A DNA stretch of 5,682 nucleotides from a virus. Its lineage: Duplodnaviria > Heunggongvirae > Uroviricota > Caudoviricetes. The DNA lies in the IMG/VR virus record IMGVR_UViG_2778261299_000006, positions 1 to 5,682 of that record. One strand, written 5' to 3'. The notes beneath the pieces are model-generated. The model was not told the origin of the DNA. It saw only the letters and a list, made by a program, of their open reading frames with translations, and searched no databases. The translations under genes were made by a program, and so were the position numbers. Positions 1 through 5,682 of the stretch are shown piece after piece. Position 1 is the first letter of the stretch, and each line of letters begins with the position of its first letter.

Positions 1-111
1 GAAGCCAGCCACGCCGACCTCGCCTGGGCGACCATGCACGCCCTGTTAAATGAGCCACTCACCGCCGGTATCAGCACTCCGCTGACATCCACCATTCTGG
101 AGTTTTACTGA
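1..111 (+). CDS. P: Terminase large (ATPase) subunit, gpP-like; 3' end only, 5' end lies outside the window
   Basis: Frame 1 is open from base 1 for 36 codons (...LAWATMHALLNEPLTAGISTPLTSTILEFY) to TGA at 109-111, which overlaps the ATG of the next gene by one base (TGATG). In P2 the late operon reads P then Q, so the gene directly upstream of the portal is expected to be the terminase. The assignment rests on synteny only; 36 residues are too few to recognise the family directly. Confidence 0.6.
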   Translation, partial: EASHADLAWATMHALLNEPLTAGISTPLTSTILEFY

Positions 112-1130
112 TGAGCAAGAAAAAAGGGAAAACACCGCAACCTGCGGCAAAAACAATGACCGCCAGCGCCCCGAAAATGGAGGCATTCACCTTTGGTGAG
201 CCGGTACCGGTACTCGACCGCCGTGACATTCTGGATTACGTCGAGTGCATCAGTAACGGCAGATGGTATGAGCCGCCGGTCAGCTTTACCGGTCTGGCAA
301 AAAGCCTGCGTGCTGCCGTGCATCACAGCTCACCGATTTACGTCAAACGCAATATTCTGGCCTCGACATTTATCCCGCATCCGTGGCTTTCCCAGCAGGA
401 TTTCAGCCGCTTTGTGCTGGATTTTCTGGTGTTCGGTAATGCGTTTCTGGAAAAGCGTTACAGCACCACCGGTAAAGTTATCAGGCTGGAAACCTCACCG
501 GCAAAATATACCCGCCGTGGTGTGGAAGAGGATGTTTACTGGTGGGTGCCGTCCTTCAACGAGCCGACAGCCTTCGCGCCCGGCTCCGTGTTTCACCTGC
601 TGGAGCCGGATATTAATCAGGAGCTGTACGGCCTGCCGGAATATCTCAGCGCCCTTAACTCTGCCTGGCTGAATGAGTCGGCCACGCTGTTCCGCCGCAA
701 GTATTACGAAAACGGCGCACATGCCGGATACATCATGTACGTCACCGATGCCGTGCAGGATCGCAACGATATCGAAATGCTTCGCGAAAACATGGTTAAG
801 TCGAAAGGCCGCAATAACTTTAAAAACCTGTTTCTCTACGCCCCGCAGGGAAAAGCCGACGGTATTAAAATTATCCCGCTCAGTGAAGTGGCGACGAAGG
901 ACGATTTTTTTAATATCAAAAAAGCCAGTGCGGAAGATCTAATGAGTGCACATCGAGTCCCCCCGCAAATGATTGGGATGATGCCTAATAATGCAGGAGG
1001 ATTTGGCGATGTAGTTAAAGCTGCTAAAGTTTTTGTCAGGAATGAGTTAGGGCACCTACAATCGCGAATGAAGGAATTGAACTCATGGATAGGTGAAACC
1101 GTTATAACATTTAACAATTACTCGTTATAA
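111..1130 (+). CDS. Q: Phage portal protein, P2 gpQ-like (339 aa)
   Basis: ATG at 111 is preceded by GGAG (99-102) at an 8-nt spacing. The 339-aa product (MSKKKGKTPQPAAKTMTASAPKMEAFTFGEPVPVLDRRDILDYVECISNGRWYEPPV...) matches my recollection of the P2 portal protein Q. GC is about 55% over the first part of the gene. Position is consistent with P2 synteny: P then Q, then cos. Confidence 0.9.
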   Translation: MSKKKGKTPQPAAKTMTASAPKMEAFTFGEPVPVLDRRDILDYVECISNGRWYEPPVSFTGLAKSLRAAVHHSSPIYVKRNILASTFIPHPWLSQQDFSRFVLDFLVFGNAFLEKRYSTTGKVIRLETSPAKYTRRGVEEDVYWWVPSFNEPTAFAPGSVFHLLEPDINQELYGLPEYLSALNSAWLNESATLFRRKYYENGAHAGYIMYVTDAVQDRNDIEMLRENMVKSKGRNNFKNLFLYAPQGKADGIKIIPLSEVATKDDFFNIKKASAEDLMSAHRVPPQMIGMMPNNAGGFGDVVKAAKVFVRNELGHLQSRMKELNSWIGETVITFNNYSL

Positions 1131-1136
1131 ACCCTG

Positions 1137-1160
1137 CAGGCTTTGGCTCGCCAAAGCCTG
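1137..1160. terminator. GC-rich inverted repeat between convergent genes; putative bidirectional terminator
   Basis: caggctttggc (1137-1147) and gccaaagcctg (1150-1160) are perfect reverse complements (about a 10-bp stem with a ctcg loop). It sits in the 35-bp gap between the stop of Q (1128-1130) and the stop of the minus-strand partner gene (1166-1168). There is no clean U-tract on the plus strand; on the minus strand it is followed by GGTTTATAA, which is only weakly T-rich. Confidence 0.45.
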
Positions 1161-1165
1161 TAAGA

Positions 1166-1783
1166 TCAAGCAGATAGGCAAAACGTTTCTGTTTGCCCCA
1201 AGTGTTCAAACACAGTAATCGATGTTACTTTTCCGGCGCTTATTTTATTAAGGAATTTCAATATTTGTTGAGGCTCCTCCATGACTGCTGTTTTCTTGAT
1301 TATAAATCCTTCAAGATTTTTCAAGCTGTATCGCTGACTTGAGTTCTCAAGAGCAGCAATCATTGCCGAACTGCGCATATCTCTATGTCCACTAGCCCTA
1401 CAAACGACAGCATAATTTAAATCAAGCTCTACAAAATTTTGCCTTGTCAACTCTGGAAGGTGTTTACATACAAAATGAAATAAAGTCGTAACACCTTCAT
1501 GTATTTTCAACCTTATATCATCCTTTTGTGAACGTCCTTCTTTAAATTCAATGAAGTACAATTTATCTTCATGTAAAAATAAAGCATCCGGTGATTTTTC
1601 TTTAAGCTCACGCCTATAAATAGGCGAGCAATTTAACACCGTATCATAGTTAAAGCCCTTCGAATCACAAATAATAAAATACCGTCCCCCGGCATCATTG
1701 TAACTTAATTCGGTTACATCAACCATTGAATCATGGTATACTTCACATAATTTTCTAAAGATAAGCTCCTCATTAGAAATCAT
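1166..1783 (-). CDS. 205-aa partner protein of the ATPase, unknown family; possible PD-(D/E)xK-type nuclease effector
   Basis: ATG at 1783-1781 is preceded by AGGAG at a 7-nt spacing (minus-strand context gaatcAGGAGtatttggATG). The start overlaps the upstream ATPase gene by 11 nt, implying translational coupling. GC is about 30%. Residues 66-82 read DALFLHEDKLYFIEFKE, i.e. a hydrophobic strand ending in D73 followed by E79-x-K81, a pattern compatible with a PD-(D/E)xK core. I see no CxxC pairs as in HNH and no ordered E...DxD TOPRIM motif. Confidence 0.75.
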   Translation of the reverse strand: MISNEELIFRKLCEVYHDSMVDVTELSYNDAGGRYFIICDSKGFNYDTVLNCSPIYRRELKEKSPDALFLHEDKLYFIEFKEGRSQKDDIRLKIHEGVTTLFHFVCKHLPELTRQNFVELDLNYAVVCRASGHRDMRSSAMIAALENSSQRYSLKNLEGFIIKKTAVMEEPQQILKFLNKISAGKVTSITVFEHLGQTETFCLSA

Positions 1784-3101
1784 CCAAATACTCCTGATTC
1801 AATTCTTTTAATGGTGTTGCCAAAAGATTAATTGCATATGCAACATTATCAGTAATATCAACAAAAGATGTAAATTCTTCCCCAGGGAATCGCTCGCTTA
1901 TATAGAACCGATTTTCAACCCCAATTTTGTCGCTAAAATGTTTAAGAGCATCAATAATATATGGGCTATGTGTTGTAATTATTATATCAACCCCCATAGA
2001 CACTAACTCACAAATAATCTCAGCATAGAAAACCTGCCACTTTGGATGTAAGTTCACCTCTGGTTCATCAATAATCAGCAACGAATTATCTACTGCTGCC
2101 CCACACTTAACAAGCATATCAAGAATACCTAAAGACTTTATTCCTGACGCAATATTACTCGATGTGACTTTATAGCCTTGCTTCTCTAGAAAAAAATCAT
2201 TCTTTTCAATATCATAAACCACCTCACCACTGAAAGCGGCATTGATTTTTTTAGATATACGAAGTGATTCATTTAAAAATGAGCCATCATCAAAAATATC
2301 CGAATGCACGAATAAATTATAAACTGAATCGCTTAGTTTTATTGATAGATCTTTCACATGCAATGGAACAGTTAGACGTCCTGATTCACCGTTACTATCA
2401 AATAAAGTTTTAGCAAAACGAACCAAATTATGAAATTGCATAATACTTGGAGAGTCAACATATGTTGCGTCGACATATCCTAAGCCATCAGTATAATCAA
2501 ATTGTGATATACCATCTTTAGTCCATTTAATATCAATTAACTGACTAACACCATCAACAACTTCCAGAGATGCTTTAACTGGATTTTGATTACCCTTCTG
2601 AATAATTTCCCCTCTAAATTCAGAGTAAAAGGCCTTACGCAGAGCGCGGTTGATAGCAGATAACTCATCATCTGGCTCAAGCATTATATCTCTGATTTTT
2701 CTTATATCAGAGAGTACAGAATCCGCCATCAACTCTGGAAGAAGACCTTCATCAATCAATTTATATAGATAACTCTCCCTCTCAGCCAAAGTTTTAGAGA
2801 TATCTATTTTTAGAGAGGCATAAAATTTTCTTGGATTGAATAACTCTCTAATTTCCGGCGTAGCAGCAATATTAATCCTCCTACGCAGATTAAAATATAT
2901 TTTCTCTACAATAGATGTAATTCTATCCTCTTTGTCTTCTTCTAAATCTTCTTGATAACGAGATATCGCCTTTACCATTGAAAACAGTATCTTCCCTACG
3001 GTACTCTTTCCCGTATCATTTTCACCAGTTATGACAGTTAATCCACCAACTGAAACATCAGCTTCCGCAATAGTTCCAAAATTATTAATTTTTATACGCA
3101 T
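1773..3101 (-). CDS. ABC-type / AAA_21-like (OLD or SMC-like) P-loop ATPase, 442 aa; first gene of a two-gene operon
   Basis: Walker A GENDTGKST (aa 26-34) is encoded at 3003-3026, verified by reverse-complement translation. A signature-like SSNIASGIKSLG lies at aa 314-325. Walker B LLIIDEPE (aa 341-348) is encoded at 2061-2081, also verified. An H-loop-like IIITTHSP lies at aa 373-380. About 300 residues separate Walker A and B, which is typical of ABC/SMC-like defence ATPases. ATG at 3101-3099. GC is about 30%, far below the flanking phage core. Confidence 0.85.
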   Translation of the reverse strand: MRIKINNFGTIAEADVSVGGLTVITGENDTGKSTVGKILFSMVKAISRYQEDLEEDKEDRITSIVEKIYFNLRRRINIAATPEIRELFNPRKFYASLKIDISKTLAERESYLYKLIDEGLLPELMADSVLSDIRKIRDIMLEPDDELSAINRALRKAFYSEFRGEIIQKGNQNPVKASLEVVDGVSQLIDIKWTKDGISQFDYTDGLGYVDATYVDSPSIMQFHNLVRFAKTLFDSNGESGRLTVPLHVKDLSIKLSDSVYNLFVHSDIFDDGSFLNESLRISKKINAAFSGEVVYDIEKNDFFLEKQGYKVTSSNIASGIKSLGILDMLVKCGAAVDNSLLIIDEPEVNLHPKWQVFYAEIICELVSMGVDIIITTHSPYIIDALKHFSDKIGVENRFYISERFPGEEFTSFVDITDNVAYAINLLATPLKELNQEYLDDF

Positions 3102-3132
3102 AAACTATCTCACTGTACGCCAGATATCCAAC

Positions 3133-3170
3133 CTTATGAATACTTTAGCATATTTCCACAAAGATGACAC
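3133..3170 (-). promoter_or_regulatory. Putative sigma70-type promoter region for the ATPase-partner operon
   Basis: On the minus strand, GTGTCA (plus coordinates 3165-3170), a 17-bp spacer, then TAAAGT (3142-3147). An alternative pairing is TTGTGG (3156-3161) with CATAAG (3133-3138). Both are only 4/6 or 3/6 matches to consensus. The region is AT-rich and lies 30-70 bp upstream of the ATG at 3101 and 25-60 bp from cos. This is a weak call. Confidence 0.25.
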
Positions 3171-3194
3171 TGGAGGCTGCAGGCCTCGCGCGCA

Positions 3195-3213
3195 GTGCTT
3201 TCCCCGCCTCGCC
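3195..3213. other. cos site: 19-nt cohesive-end sequence of P2-type phages (cosN), joined/intact form
   Basis: Plus strand 3195-3213 is gtgctttccccgcctcgcc, the exact reverse complement of GGCGAGGCGGGGAAAGCAC. I recall that sequence as the P2/P4 cohesive end, and it is at the expected place between the Q side and the A side of the genome. The orientation (GGCGAGG... reading on the minus strand toward Q) fits the P2 left end. Confidence 0.8.
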
Positions 3214-3335: not shown

Positions 3336-3366
3336 CACACAAAAACGGGGAAAGTCGCTTTCCCCC
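3336..3366 (-). terminator. Rho-independent terminator downstream of the 174-aa gene
   Basis: Minus strand reads GGGGAAAG-cga-CTTTCCCC (plus coordinates 3347-3365, an 8-bp perfect GC-rich stem) followed immediately by GTTTTTGTGTG. It starts 11 nt after the TGA stop of the 174-aa gene (3379-3377). Confidence 0.7.
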
Positions 3367-3376
3367 ACAAACATTA

Positions 3377-3901
3377 TCAACGCACCGGAATGTAAGATTC
3401 AAGGTCTCTGATTACGGCTTGTTTCAGTGCTTCAGATACAGCCTCAAGTTCTGGCAATGCTGGCTTTTCACTTAAGTTCGTTTCAAATTCCCCGCTTCCT
3501 ATTACTAGCGTAAAGCCATTTCCATCACGTAGCAGTTTCAAAGGAATAATCACGTTTAACTTAGGATGAGCAACCGGTGACTTATCCACTGTAAGACCAA
3601 TAAAAAATGACAAAATCCCATCTGCATCAGGCAACAGATCGTGTAACTGAACTTTAGATTTTTCACCATCTTTAATTGCAGCGACAAAAACATAATTTTC
3701 AGTGGGGTTTTGCCCTGGATAGCCCCAGCAAGTTTGCTCAAGCTCAAGCGACCCCTCAAAGTTTTTCGCAATCAGCCCAACAATATTTTGTAAACGCTCT
3801 TTTTCCTCTCTCTGTAACCGAACGATTTCAATATACTTATCTCTTATAGTCTGAAAAGTAATCACTTTAGTCTCCTTAAACGGCTTACACAGAAACAGCA
3901 T
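3377..3901 (-). CDS. Hypothetical protein, 174 aa (162 aa if it starts at GTG 3865); orphan accessory gene at the tin/old-equivalent position
   Basis: ORF from ATG 3901-3899 to TGA 3379-3377. GGGGG lies 4 nt upstream of the ATG. An alternative start GTG at 3865-3863 is preceded by AAGGAG at a 5-nt spacing, a better-positioned SD. The gene has its own intrinsic terminator (3336-3366). GC is about 40-42%. I recognise no family motif by eye. Confidence 0.65.
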   Translation of the reverse strand: MLFLCKPFKETKVITFQTIRDKYIEIVRLQREEKERLQNIVGLIAKNFEGSLELEQTCWGYPGQNPTENYVFVAAIKDGEKSKVQLHDLLPDADGILSFFIGLTVDKSPVAHPKLNVIIPLKLLRDGNGFTLVIGSGEFETNLSEKPALPELEAVSEALKQAVIRDLESYIPVR

Positions 3902-3929
3902 TTAACCCCCTGATAATATTTCTTTCAAT
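3900..3929 (-). promoter_or_regulatory. Putative promoter for the 174-aa gene
   Basis: On the minus strand, TTGAAA (plus coordinates 3924-3929), an 18-bp spacer, then TTAAAT (3900-3905). The -10 overlaps the ATG at 3901, so this promoter would favour the GTG 3865 start with its AAGGAG SD. An alternative -10, TATTAT (3913-3918), has a poor -35. Low confidence. Confidence 0.25.
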
Positions 3930-4213
3930 AATTTTCCTAACGCCTCGCTACGCTCGTTGTTCAACCCCGTCAGCCCTGAAAACAAGTTTCACGACTGGCG
4001 GCGTTCTCTATCGTCTGCGTGGTGGTGACGTAACTCTTGATTGACCGATATGGTTAAACCGCCCGTCATTATCCCGGACTATTTCGGCACACCCGACCAG
4101 CTCATCGGGCGTCAGATTTTCGTTGACCATAATCCGCTGTAAACGCTGAACAATAGCCATCAGCTTGATATTTTTAGTTTTATGGTGCGGTATCTCGCCT
4201 GGTATTCTGTGCA

Positions 4214-4666
4214 TTATCCAAGCCACCCGTTTTGCTGTGCACGCTCCATCTGTTCATCTGAATAGTTCCATGCTCCATCCGTGGCAACCATTGCCCCGCC
4301 AGACATCCCTGTCTCTGGTTCATACATAACAGCAAGGCCGAGCTGATGCATAATTTCATGATTAATTCTGAATACCAGACCACGCTCACTAAGTTCTTTC
4401 CAGTTCACAATCTCATATGCGCATGTATTAAGCAGATCAATACTTAGCAAGACATAATCTTCCAGCCAGTCTGACAGGTCAGTAACATCTGTTATCCGGG
4501 CTTCAACCTTTCGCCCCGTGTACACACCCTGCACCCATTCATGCAAAATCAACGTGTCCCCGCGCTCATAATTACGGTCATTTTTCCGAAACTCTGCGCG
4601 TTTCTTTCCTTCCAGCACAAGGTCGAAATATTTTGCGTGCAGCTTTACCTCGTGAATTTTTGCCAT
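4214..4666 (-). CDS. ASCH / DUF3850-like domain protein (orf91-position gene) with a C-terminal extension carrying HEIMH; 150 aa
   Basis: True start is taken as ATG 4666-4664 (MAKIHEVKLHAKYFDLVLEGKKRAEFRKNDRNYERGDTLILHEW...), not the upstream GTG at 4702 reported in the ORF track. GGAG lies 8 nt upstream. The ATG overlaps the TAA stop of gene A by one base (TAATG). The N-terminal ~75 aa resemble the ASCH-like DUF3850 pattern as I recall it. The C-terminal half contains INHEIMHQLGL...YEPE. The position immediately downstream of A matches P2 orf91. Confidence 0.75.
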   Translation of the reverse strand: MAKIHEVKLHAKYFDLVLEGKKRAEFRKNDRNYERGDTLILHEWVQGVYTGRKVEARITDVTDLSDWLEDYVLLSIDLLNTCAYEIVNWKELSERGLVFRINHEIMHQLGLAVMYEPETGMSGGAMVATDGAWNYSDEQMERAQQNGWLG

Positions 4667-5682
4667 TATGTCCACTCCATTACTGTTGAGAATCCCGGCC
4701 ACTCATCAGCGACCGGATACGTGAATTTTTTCCCGTCATAATTTACGGTCGCGCCACGCGCCAGCGCCTCAAGCTCCCATCGCTGCGGCCTGATACCGTT
4801 CTGAGCAAGGTCAACGCGGATACGGGTAATTTGCATTCTTTCCGACCGGGTCAGTCTGACCGATGGTGCAATTTCATGTGGTTTTAACGGGCTTCCGTTT
4901 CTTTGCTGACGGTTTGGCGTTCTCAGGTCGTGTTTTAATGCGCCCCTGAGCGCCCTCACGACCTCCGGTTCATTCCATTCAATAACACCGCCATCAACCA
5001 GATTAAGCACTGCTGCGGCGTGCTCAGAAGGTGTGGGAACCAGTAACGAAGTATCACCACCGGAGAGCTTTCCACAGTTATTGACAGGACTCCGAGGCGC
5101 GGCGATGCCGCTTTTTAAAGTCAAAGGCTCAACGACCGGCACTTTCGGCACAATGCGCCAGTCCGTGGTTCTGGTGATATGAATATGACGCGCGCCGAGA
5201 TGCGGCGCGTAAATGCCGACCACTCTCTCGACTTCTTCCTCGTACTCGTTAACGTCATCCGACGGGCTACGGGCGACCCTGACAGTCTGACAATCGCGCG
5301 GGACATTTGCCCCGCCCTGCGCGCTGATATACAACGCAAAATCACCACTGTCTGCGGCGGCGCGTGCAGCCTCGACGCGTTCGTCAAACTCATCAGCAAT
5401 GCTGACGCCGCGAGGCAATTTGCGTAGTTCACGGTAAGCACCCATTGTCGGCAGGCCAACCGTTTTAAATTGCGGAATGCGCCACGTTGACGCCCATGCG
5501 GTAACAGCCGCGGCAGTATCTTTCAGCGGTCTGCCGGTATCGTTATCGAGCTGCCCATCCAGTGCATAGCCGTCGATATTTTTTGAGATGTATTTCGCGA
5601 TATACCCCGCAGCACCGCCCCGGTTAAGGTGTTTTGCCTGAAAACGGTTTCGCGCGGCTCCTCTTTCGTCACCATCCTCTTT
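4666..5682 (-). CDS. A: Rolling-circle replication initiator, P2 gpA-like; C-terminal 338 codons, 5' end outside the window
   Basis: I translated the minus-strand frame by hand from 5682 down to TAA at 4668-4666 and found no stop, so the gene enters from beyond the window edge. It contains GYIAKYISKNIDGY (Tyr codons at 5604-5602 and 5592-5590), the Y-x-x-K-Y two-tyrosine motif of phiX174/P2-type RCR initiators. The second Tyr is 308 residues from the C-terminus, which fits the P2 A active-site position as I remember it. GC is about 55%. Confidence 0.9.
   Translation of the reverse strand, partial: KEDGDERGAARNRFQAKHLNRGGAAGYIAKYISKNIDGYALDGQLDNDTGRPLKDTAAAVTAWASTWRIPQFKTVGLPTMGAYRELRKLPRGVSIADEFDERVEAARAAADSGDFALYISAQGGANVPRDCQTVRVARSPSDDVNEYEEEVERVVGIYAPHLGARHIHITRTTDWRIVPKVPVVEPLTLKSGIAAPRSPVNNCGKLSGGDTSLLVPTPSEHAAAVLNLVDGGVIEWNEPEVVRALRGALKHDLRTPNRQQRNGSPLKPHEIAPSVRLTRSERMQITRIRVDLAQNGIRPQRWELEALARGATVNYDGKKFTYPVADEWPGFSTVMEWT

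What the first reader, a model, noticed from the sequence alone, without database searches (positions are those of the whole stretch)
1166..3101. AT-rich two-gene operon (ABC/AAA_21-like ATPase plus 205-aa partner) inserted between portal gene Q and cos: candidate anti-phage defence module
Seen in sequence: there are two co-oriented minus-strand genes with an 11-nt stop/start overlap, and the partner gene has a good SD (AGGAG). The ATPase has Walker A, Walker B and H-loop motifs. The segment is about 30% GC against about 55% in flanking Q and A. In canonical P2, as I recall, Q lies close to the left cos end, so about 2 kb here is extra cargo. From established knowledge, the P2 cos-proximal region between Q and the A/tin/old side is a documented hotspot where P2-like prophages carry diverse defence systems, and ATPase-plus-small-effector pairs are a recurring defence architecture (Septu, PARIS, Gabija-like, OLD-like). 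By inference, this operon is a defence or abortive-infection module expressed from the prophage. I cannot assign it to a named family by eye.
Basis: partly seen in the sequence, partly recalled or inferred. Interest (0 to 1): 0.85.

Follow-up and report, generated by a model that had tools for sequence, protein, structure and literature searches.

The report
Unnamed ATPase–nuclease defence candidate in P2 prophage
A P2-like prophage carries, in its known defence-gene hotspot next to the DNA-packaging site, a rare two-gene cassette (an ABC-type ATPase plus a small restriction-enzyme-like nuclease) that is built like known anti-phage systems but matches none of the named families I could test.

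Summary
Two intact, overlapping minus-strand genes (ATPase 1773-3101, partner 1166-1783) sit between portal gene Q and the P2 cos site (3195-3213). Their GC is 34-36%, against 50-55% in the flanks. The ATPase is an SMC/Rad50/PtuA/OLD-like ABC head, not a transporter. The 205-aa partner has no Pfam, NCBIfam or PADLOC match, but its model and invariant residues (P65-D66, E79, K81) indicate a PD-(D/E)xK nuclease. The pair is inseparable: the ATPase lies immediately upstream in all 32 loci that hold a partner homologue. Both genes are under purifying selection. The pair is a rare accessory, found in 8 of 5426 complete E. coli genomes. A sister prophage carries a bona fide PD-T4-4, a validated defence system of the same architecture, in the same slot. 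The window pair fails sequence tests for PD-T4-4, WonAB and PARIS, its partner matches no Septu or OLD model, and the HEC-02 test is inconclusive. The best reading is an uncharacterised family of the known class "ABC-ATPase sensor plus PD-(D/E)xK nuclease effector". Defence itself is inferred, not shown. The swapped cassette spans 932-3187 and includes the 3' end of Q.

The parts
932..1130 (+). 3' end of portal gene Q (aa 274-339), which belongs to the swapped cassette
   Evidence: DNA homology to P2 (97.6%) and to sister prophage L008 (96.5%) stops at window 931. Q aa 1-273 are 99.6% identical to P2 Q, but aa 274-339 are only 57.6% identical (77% to L018 Q). GC falls to 0.42 over 901-1100.
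1137..1160 (.). Perfect 10-bp hairpin (CAGGCTTTGG-CGAG-CCAAAGCCTG) between the convergent Q and partner genes; terminator-like but with no U-tract
   Evidence: Read directly. The terminator scan did not call it. It sits where tQ sits in P2. Its function was not tested.
1166..1783 (-). Partner gene, 205 aa: predicted PD-(D/E)xK (restriction-endonuclease-fold) nuclease of an unnamed family; putative effector
1791..1795 (-). Shine-Dalgarno AGGAG for the partner gene, inside the ATPase gene; suggests translational coupling
   Evidence: AGGAG or close variants (e.g. AGGAA, CGGAG) are kept at this position in the loci where the pair has the 11-nt overlap, except L012.
1773..3101 (-). ABC-type ATPase gene, 442 aa (Pfam AAA_21/AAA_15); putative sensor/regulator
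3142..3170 (-). Candidate promoter of the operon: GTGTCA (3170-3165), 17-nt spacer, TG-c-TAAAGT extended -10 (3150-3142); about 40 nt upstream of the ATPase ATG and 25 nt from cos
   Evidence: Sequence. The block ATGCTAAAGT is kept upstream of the ATPase in loci with 76-98% ATPase identity, and as GTGCTACAGT in L021 (67%), while the flanking DNA is unalignable. It falls below the scan tool's 9-of-12 threshold. Promoter activity is inferred, not shown.
3195..3213 (-). cos: the 19-nt P2 cohesive-end sequence; the right edge of the cassette lies at 3187/3188, 7 nt from it
   Evidence: Identical to NC_001895 1-19, annotated cosL. A 26-nt exact match to P2 covers 3188-3213, and homology to L008 resumes at 3188.
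3345..3368 (-). Intrinsic-terminator-like hairpin plus T-run after the 174-aa gene on the A side of cos; would separate the cassette from upstream transcription

Best explanation
The cassette is a prophage-borne anti-phage defence module of the class 'OLD/SMC-like ABC ATPase plus small PD-(D/E)xK nuclease'. The proposed mechanism is as follows. The two proteins are made from one transcript, from the cassette's own promoter next to cos, with coupled translation, and they assemble into a complex. The ATPase dimer holds the nuclease in check and senses an infection cue through its variable helical insert (about residues 47-162). ATP binding or hydrolysis then licenses the nuclease, which cuts nucleic acid and stops phage development. 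By analogy with WonAB, PARIS, retron-Septu and OLD, the outcome is probably growth arrest or abortive infection, possibly by cutting tRNA or rRNA rather than bulk DNA. What is shown: intact genes under purifying selection; ABC-ATPase motifs and fold; a restriction-enzyme-like fold with an invariant PD...ExK; obligatory gene pairing; rare accessory status in the documented P2 hotspot; and allelic replacement by PD-T4-4 in a sister prophage. What is inferred: complex formation, ATPase gating, the trigger, the substrate, and protection itself.
For: Position: the cassette lies between gpQ and cos in a P2-like prophage, and the gpA-gpQ region is a published defence hotspot. Accessory status: only 8 of 5426 complete E. 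coli genomes carry it. Slot equivalence: L008 shares the same Q and A flanks at 96% identity, and its slot holds PD-T4-4 (A 1.6e-111 over the full length, B 5e-12). ATPase: the best profile and structure matches are defence ABC ATPases and SMC/Rad50 heads. Partner: PD-(D/E)xK evidence comes, plus weak hits to the bunyavirus L-protein endonuclease, CARF_PDDEXK, Cas4 and HEC-02B. Pairing: the ATPase is immediately upstream in 32 of 32 loci at 33-98% identity, with an overlap or a gap of 13 nt or less in all 21 loci measured, and the identities of the two genes correlate at r = 0.91. Even distant partner relatives keep the ATPase. Mobility: the pair occurs in P2-like phages with 63-99% Q identity, beside an integrase, beside a Tn5-type transposase, after an N6-MTase, and in a cassette-array-like context in V. 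cholerae. Selection: dN/dS is 0.08 and 0.20. Mechanistic precedent: WonAB needs both genes plus the ATPase and nuclease residues, and it arrests translation without degrading DNA. HEC-02 needs both genes. Nuclease-NTPase systems generally form complexes.
Confidence: 0.75

Rival explanations
1. The same two proteins act as a direct, non-abortive nucleic-acid-targeting system: the complex recognises and degrades incoming phage DNA, in a restriction-like or Gabija-like manner, and the cell survives.
For: The partner's nearest folds are DNA restriction and nicking enzymes (PspGI, N.BspD6I, FokI, McrC). The ATPase head is closest to the DNA-binding SMC/Rad50 heads. Many nuclease-NTPase defence systems cleave DNA with degenerate specificity in vitro (abstract).
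Against: No methyltransferase or other self-protection gene accompanies the pair in any locus. The best-studied system of this class, WonAB, leaves DNA intact and blocks translation. Can2/Card1, the top fold hits, also cut RNA. This rival differs from the best explanation only in substrate and outcome.
Confidence: 0.25
2. The pair is an addiction or toxin-antitoxin-like module. [quoted passage not shown]
For: A nuclease kept in check by an ATPase resembles a toxin-antitoxin pair, and Pfam labels AAA_21 as TA-associated. AriA chains are deposited in the PDB as 'antitoxin'. P2 hotspot systems can act against P2 relatives.
Against: In the analogous WonAB and PARIS systems a simple TA relation was excluded experimentally: deleting either gene is non-toxic, and WonB toxicity needs an active WonA. 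The pair also sits in non-prophage contexts.
Confidence: 0.07
3. The pair serves the phage's own DNA metabolism. It would be a Rad50/SbcC-like ATPase plus nuclease for recombination, repair or packaging, or an anti-defence function.
Against: The cassette is absent from P2 itself and from more than 99% of E. coli genomes that carry P2-like cos flanks. It is replaced by PD-T4-4 in a sister phage. It has no long coiled coil or zinc hook, and no Mre11/SbcD-type phosphoesterase. It is AT-rich foreign DNA. It also occurs outside phages.
Confidence: 0.04
4. The ATPase is the nucleotide-binding subunit of a housekeeping ABC transporter, and the partner is unrelated.
For: NCBIfam lists weak matches to FtsE, CbiO, NodI and others. 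Some database entries call homologues 'ABC transporter ATP-binding protein'.
Against: Those matches score 15-25 bits against curated cut-offs of 130-800 bits and cover only the signature/Walker B segment. No permease gene is adjacent in any locus. A large helical insert and a C-terminal extension are present. Defence ATPases score far better.
Confidence: 0.01

Closest known systems
PD-T4-4 (Vassallo et al. 2022, PMC9519451)
   Same: It is a two-gene operon of an AAA_15/21 ABC ATPase followed by a protein of about 190 aa, classed as a PD-(D/E)xK nuclease-NTPase system, with overlapping stop and start codons. A bona fide copy occupies exactly the same Q-cos slot in a sister P2-like prophage (L008).
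   Different: The window ATPase matches the PD-T4-4_A model only in two head fragments (106 bits), against 372 bits over the full length for the L008 control. BLASTP between the two ATPases gives 32% identity over 109 aa. The window partner has no PD-T4-4_B match and no BLASTP similarity to the L008 B protein.
[quoted passage not shown]
   Same: It is prophage-borne and consists of an OLD-type ABC ATPase plus a small PD-(D/E)xK protein. Both genes and both active sites are required, and the outcome is abortive with translation shut-off. This is the best mechanistic model for the window pair.
   Different: WonB is about 145 aa with its lysine at position 71, and hhalign of the partner family against WonB gives a probability of 1.2%. 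WonA has a GPQAQGKS P-loop and aligns to the window ATPase only over the head (27% over 100 aa). Conserved partner peptides are absent from the stored part of the paper's hit tables.
HEC-02 (Payne et al. 2024, bioRxiv 10.1101/2024.01.29.577857)
   Same: It pairs an ABC ATPase with a NERD-type PD-(D/E)xK protein, and both genes are needed for defence. HEC-02A is the best PADLOC hit of the window ATPase (1.1e-33).
   Different: The HEC-02A match is fragmentary (two stretches, the best covering residues 273-396). HEC-02B is hit by only 1 of 47 partner homologues at E = 0.011 and by one distant relative at 4e-4.
PARIS (AriAB), Septu/retron PtuAB, OLD, Gabija
   Same: They share the same clade of ABC ATPase head and the same logic of an ATPase sensor controlling a nuclease.
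   Different: Their effectors are TOPRIM/DUF4435 (AriB, OLD, GajA) or HNH (PtuB). The window partner matches no PADLOC or Pfam model at all and has a PD-(D/E)xK fold instead. OLD and GajA are single-chain fusions.
PDC-M29 (untested PADLOC 'phage defence candidate')
   Same: It is the only PADLOC system whose two models touch both proteins: PDC-M29A hits the ATPase at 5e-13, and PDC-M29B is hit by 12 of 47 partner homologues.
   Different: The PDC-M29B hits are marginal (best E = 0.0019), and the window protein itself gives none. PDC systems are predictions without tests, and no paper mentions PDC-M29.

Membership tests
PD-T4-4 | Full-length match to the PD-T4-4_A ATPase model | tested here: not met
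   The window ATPase scores 106 bits in two fragments (best stretch 273-385). The positive control in L008 scores 372 bits over 16-466.
PD-T4-4 | Match to the PD-T4-4_B partner model | tested here: not met
   The window partern gives no hit at E <= 1, and neither do its 46 homologues. The control L008 B protein hits at 5.3e-12. BLASTP between the window partner and L008 B is not significant.
WonAB / OLD-ABC ATPase + novel REase | WonB-type PD-(D/E)xK protein of about 145 aa | tested here: not met
   hhalign of A1 against a three-sequence WonB alignment gives probability 1.2% and E = 0.042. The WonB profile was thin, with only three sequences.
WonAB / OLD-ABC ATPase + novel REase | WonA-type ATPase | tested here: not met
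   BLASTP to E. coli E24377A WonA (sequence truncated in the source) aligns only the head segments: 27% over 100 aa at E = 7e-8, and 24% over the N-terminal segment. Conserved peptides are absent from the stored part of Supplementary Tables 4 and 5.
HEC-02 | HEC-02A ATPase together with a HEC-02B NERD nuclease | tested here: inconclusive
   HEC-02A hits at 1.1e-33 but in fragments. HEC-02B is hit by 1 of 47 homologues at 0.011 and by one remote relative at 4e-4. This suggests the same superfamily, but family membership is not shown.
PARIS | AriB DUF4435/TOPRIM partner | tested here: not met
   The partner has no DUF4435 or any Pfam hit and no AriB hit in PADLOC. Its fold is restriction-endonuclease-like.
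Septu / retron PtuAB | PtuB HNH nuclease partner | tested here: not met
   The partner has no HNH or PtuB hit. PtuA models match only the C-terminal head of the ATPase. NCBIfam PtuA scores 39.6 bits against a cut-off of 500.
OLD / Gabija | TOPRIM nuclease domain fused to the ABC ATPase | tested here: not met
   The ATPase is 442 aa with no TOPRIM hit. The Old model matches only residues 337-385.
Class: ABC-ATPase + PD-(D/E)xK nuclease two-gene defence modules | ABC ATPase with complete catalytic motifs and an SMC/OLD-like head fold | tested here: met
   [not shown]
Class: ABC-ATPase + PD-(D/E)xK nuclease two-gene defence modules | Partner with a PD-(D/E)xK fold and catalytic D...(D/E)xK | tested here: met
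   [not shown]
Class: ABC-ATPase + PD-(D/E)xK nuclease two-gene defence modules | Obligate operonic pairing | tested here: met
   The ATPase is adjacent in 32 of 32 loci, with an overlap or a gap of 13 nt or less in the 21 loci measured, and the identities correlate at r = 0.91. Remote relatives are also paired.
Class: ABC-ATPase + PD-(D/E)xK nuclease two-gene defence modules | Protection against phage that requires both genes and both active sites | not testable with these tools
   This needs plaque assays and point mutants.
P2 gpA-gpQ defence hotspot cargo | Variable accessory DNA between gpA and gpQ, next to cos, in a P2-like prophage | tested here: met
   The backbone genes P, Q, A, O and N are annotated in L001. 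The cos 19-mer is identified. The slot content differs between L001, L008, P2 and the window. The hotspot is described.

The most novel reading that the evidence does not exclude
The pair founds a distinct, still unnamed family of anti-phage systems. It would be a third lineage beside WonAB and PD-T4-4, in which an OLD/SMC-like ABC ATPase controls a PD-(D/E)xK nuclease. The effector family (26 clusters at 50% identity with E <= 1e-30, and 588 clusters at E <= 1e-3, in 1.84 billion representatives) is not recognised by Pfam, NCBIfam or PADLOC v2. The ATPase insert would imply its own trigger. The family spreads as a self-promoted cassette among P2-like phages by crossovers inside Q and at cos, and it also reaches integrase islands, a transposon-adjacent site and a Vibrio cassette array.
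Probability: 0.55. Interest if true: 0.5.

Novelty: new variant of a known kind. Interest (0 to 1): 0.45.

Why it matters
If confirmed, this adds a compact family (about 2 kb, two genes) to the ABC-ATPase-plus-nuclease defence class, with an effector that current annotation tools do not recognise. Prophages that carry it are therefore currently scored as lacking a complete known system in that slot. Three sequence-distinct systems of the same architecture (PD-T4-4, WonAB and this one), two of them occupying the same slot of near-identical P2-like prophages, offer a natural experiment. It could show how the variable ATPase inserts set trigger specificity while the control logic stays the same. 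The mapped crossover points (inside Q, and 7 nt from cos) also show concretely how the hotspot cargo is exchanged. The kind of system and the hotspot are both already known, so this would be an incremental advance rather than a surprise.

Tried and rejected
- **Named-family assignment by HMM.** I scanned PADLOC, Pfam, NCBIfam and PHROGs. The ATPase gives only head-domain hits and the partner gives none. PHROGs has exact families (phrog_14430 and phrog_25533), both of unknown function.
- **WonB homology.** Rejected by hhalign, probability 1.2%.
- **P0034, the Vibrio cholerae homologue.** I considered that it might be WonB itself. It is not: its catalytic lysine is at position 80 rather than 71, and its sequence is unrelated to the published WonB.
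- **Sequence search of the PDB with the partner.** Nothing meaningful by single sequence or by profile. Foldseek against the PDB gave no significant hit. The afdb50 library was not available.
- **Truncated gpA.** The ORF list suggested a 259-aa fragment, but translation shows that the A frame is open to the end of the window, so A is simply cut by the window edge.
- **RNA genes.** There is no Rfam family or tRNA in the window, so no retron-type ncRNA or tRNA cargo.
- **Literature.** I found no paper mentioning the RefSeq accessions or PDC-M29. The new P4/P2 systems named in NAR 2026 (Crouga, Bandua, Aernus, Toga, Reve, Hailong) have different architectures. Krishnan et al. 2020 is not held. 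The WonAB supplement is truncated, so absence from its tables is only partial evidence.
- **Transporter and phage-DNA-metabolism readings.** Both rejected; see the rival explanations.
Full report
**1. What is in the window**

The window is a piece of a P2-like (Peduovirus) prophage, read in the reverse of the standard P2 orientation.
- Portal gene Q is at 111-1130 (+) (Pfam Phage_portal).
- The replication gene A enters from the right edge and ends at 4666 (-). Its frame is open to base 5682 and it matches phrog_91 'nicking at origin of replication'.
- The P2 cohesive-end 19-mer GGCGAGGCGGGGAAAGCAC, annotated cosL at NC_001895 1-19, lies at 3213-3195 on the minus strand.
- A near-identical copy of the cargo sits in a complete prophage in E. 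coli BUCT2930 (L001). There it lies between the annotated portal gene and the replication endonuclease gene, with terminase, capsid and scaffold genes alongside.

**2. The observation**

- The 11-nt stop/start overlap and the AGGAG 7 nt upstream of the partner ATG are confirmed.
- In P2 the Q stop codon is 167 nt from cos. Here it is 2064 nt away.
- These are real genes. Against the 96.6%-identical copy in L001, dN/dS is 0.08 for the ATPase and 0.20 for the partner. Profile E-values reach 1e-33.

**3. The ATPase**

- Pfam gives AAA_21 (5e-19) and AAA_15 (3e-18).
- In an alignment of 36 homologues at 35-82% identity, these residues are invariant: Walker A (G26, N28, G31-K32-S33-T34), the signature-region residues N316, A318, G320 and K322, Walker B D345-E346, and H-loop H378.
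- The AF2 model (pLDDT 86.5) shows an ABC head with a long helical insert (about residues 47-162) and a C-terminal extension.
- Sequence searches of the PDB find AriA, PtuA and OLD.
- NCBIfam transporter models score 15-25 bits against cut-offs of 130-800, and no permease gene is adjacent in any locus. The 'housekeeping transporter' refutation condition is therefore not met.

**4. The partner**

- It has no match in Pfam, NCBIfam or PADLOC. PHROGs holds an exact family (phrog_25533) of unknown function.
- Forty-seven homologues share invariant D47, N51, P65-D66, F77, E79, K81, G83, R91 and K93.
- The AF2 model is confident (pLDDT 87, pTM 0.84). It places PD66 just before strand 67-71 and E79-x-K81 at the end of strand 74-81. 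That is the canonical PD-(D/E)xK hairpin.
- Foldseek finds nothing significant, although its top hits are the same kind of enzyme.
- Weak profile hits point the same way. They include the bunyavirus L-protein endonuclease domain (7 of 47 members), CARF_PDDEXK, and Cas4 and HEC-02B in remote relatives.
- I therefore call the partner a predicted PD-(D/E)xK nuclease of an unnamed family. Catalysis has not been shown.
- An exhaustive profile search of 1.84 billion cluster representatives finds 26 clusters at E <= 1e-30, 61 at <= 1e-10 and 588 at <= 1e-3. Most are proteins of 170-210 aa.

**5. The pair is one unit**

- In all 32 fetched loci that encode a partner homologue, an ATPase homologue (33-98% identity) lies immediately upstream on the same strand.
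- In the 21 loci measured, the genes overlap or are separated by 13 nt or less. The commonest arrangement is the same 11-nt overlap.
- Identities of the two genes to the window copies correlate at r = 0.91 over 20 loci.
- Two remote partner relatives (profile E of 1e-11 to 1e-14) are also preceded by overlapping AAA_15/21 ATPases of 425-443 aa. One of these follows an N6-methyltransferase gene.

**6. Context and mobility**

- Only 8 of 5426 complete E. coli genomes carry the cassette, whereas 2125 match some part of the query, mostly its cos-flanking stretch. No record in the phage collection carries it.
- In IMG/VR it recurs in the A-[pair]-Q slot of P2-like phages whose Q is only 63-80% identical to this one.
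- It also occurs in several other settings:
  - next to a tyrosine integrase in a small element (L003 and L004);
  - directly after gpA in an Aeromonas element with P2-type genes (L005 and L006);
  - beside a Tn5-type transposase in Pseudomonas;
  - in a V. cholerae array of small acetyltransferase and glyoxalase cassettes.
- The gpA-gpQ region is a published defence hotspot (Rousset 2022; Vassallo 2022; NAR 2026).
- The most telling comparison is the prophage of E. coli UTAK-5 (L008). It shares the window's flanks at 96% identity on both sides, but in the same slot it carries an ATPase of 478 aa and a 190-aa protein. These are bona fide PD-T4-4: A at 1.6e-111 over the full length, B at 5.3e-12.
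- The window cassette is thus an allelic alternative to an experimentally validated defence system with the same gene architecture.

**7.

- Homology to both P2 and L008 stops at window 931, inside Q, and resumes at 3188, which is 7 nt from the cos 19-mer.
- Q residues 1-273 are 99.6% identical to P2 Q. Residues 274-339 are only 57.6% identical to P2 and 77% identical to the Q of L018, a more distant P2-like phage that also carries the pair.
- The exchanged segment is therefore 932-3187, and it brought its own Q 3' end with it.
- Upstream of the ATPase, the motif ATGCTAAAGT (an extended -10, TG-n-TAAAGT, at 3150-3142) is kept in loci with 76-98% ATPase identity, and as GTGCTACAGT in L021 (67%). 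The surrounding DNA cannot be aligned. With GTGTCA 17 nt upstream, it is a plausible promoter belonging to the cassette.
- A terminator-like hairpin with a T-run at 3368-3345 closes the A-side transcription unit before cos.
- A perfect 10-bp hairpin at 1137-1160 lies between the convergent Q and partner genes.
- No Rfam family or tRNA is present.

**8. Comparison with known systems**

The class is known. It pairs an OLD/SMC-like ABC ATPase with a PD-(D/E)xK nuclease.
- WonAB needs both genes, ATPase residues K34, R182, E300 and H333, and nuclease residue K71. It aborts infection and blocks translation without degrading DNA.
- HEC-02 has a NERD-type partner and needs both genes.
- PD-T4-4 is classed among the nuclease-NTPase systems, which form complexes.

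Membership in each named family was tested.
- **PD-T4-4:** the A model matches only in fragments (106 bits, against 372 bits for the L008 control), and the B model does not match. Not met.
- **WonAB:** hhalign gives probability 1.2% for the partner, and only head-domain similarity is found for the ATPase. The family's conserved peptides are absent from the stored part of the WonAB hit tables. Not met.
- **HEC-02:** the evidence is marginal and inconclusive.
- **PARIS, Septu, OLD and Gabija:** these use TOPRIM or HNH effectors. The window partner matches none of their models, and the ATPase has no TOPRIM domain.
- **PDC-M29:** this untested PADLOC candidate is the nearest sequence-level lead, but the link is marginal.

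No paper I could search names this pair.

**9. Mechanism**

Most likely, the two proteins form a complex in the lysogen. The ATPase dimer restrains the nuclease and senses infection through its variable insert. ATP-dependent rearrangement then releases or activates the nuclease. The outcome is growth arrest or abortive infection.

By analogy with WonAB, and with what I recall of PARIS and retron-Septu, the target may be tRNA or rRNA. A 2026 preprint describes OLD itself as an abortive tRNase (abstract). Direct DNA targeting remains a serious alternative, because the fold neighbours are DNA enzymes. All of these steps are inferred; only the parts list and its conservation are shown.

**10. Verdict**

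The cassette is best described as an uncharacterised family within a known kind of defence system, located in a known hotspot. Its interest is moderate: it is a good, cheap experimental target, but it would not surprise a specialist.

Limits of this assessment:
- there is no functional test;
- no complex model could be run;
- PADLOC models date from 2023;
- the afdb50 library was unavailable;
- Krishnan et al. 2020 is not held;
- the WonAB supplement is truncated.

Noticed in passing
window 932-1130 (Q codons 274-339): The portal gene is a mosaic. Residues 1-273 are 99.6% identical to P2 Q, but the last 66 residues are only 57.6% identical, and DNA homology to P2 and to L008 breaks at base 931. 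The 3' end of Q was imported together with the defence cassette, so hotspot exchange uses a crossover inside an essential structural gene.
   Followed up: yes
window 3377-4702 (minus strand): 174-aa ORF 3377-3901, small ORF 4008-4226, ASCH/DUF3850+DUF7415 ORF 4214-4702: A second, independent cargo block lies on the gpA side of cos. It co-occurs with PD-T4-4 instead of this pair in L008 and five other genomes, and it is absent from L001. The two sides of cos are therefore exchanged separately. The 174-aa protein matches only phrog_5091 (unknown function), and none of the three ORFs has a PADLOC hit. Their function is unknown.
   Followed up: partly
L008 2734-4735 (E. coli UTAK-5, NZ_CP157152.1): A bona fide PD-T4-4 system sits in the Q-cos slot of a P2-like prophage. 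Vassallo et al. originally reported PD-T4-4 from an ICE-like element, so this system also circulates in the P2 hotspot.
   Followed up: partly
L005 and L006 (Aeromonas hydrophila contigs): The pair sits directly after gpA in a compact element that has Cox, Ogr/Delta, a GPO N-terminal fragment, a P2-type capsid gene and gpA. No portal or tail genes are visible within 8 kb, and chromosomal genes (H-NS, Tex, GreB) follow. This may be a P2-derived satellite or a remnant.
   Followed up: no
L041 (Vibrio cholerae contig JABYBO010000023.1): A homologous pair (partner 46% identical) lies among many short co-oriented genes (acetyltransferases, glyoxalase, DUF3709). This looks like a superintegron cassette array. 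attC sites were not checked.
   Followed up: no
[not shown]
   Followed up: no
window 4666-5445: The ORF lister reports a 259-aa ORF here, which looks like a truncated gpA. In fact the reading frame is open up to the window edge, so gpA is simply cut by the window.
   Followed up: yes
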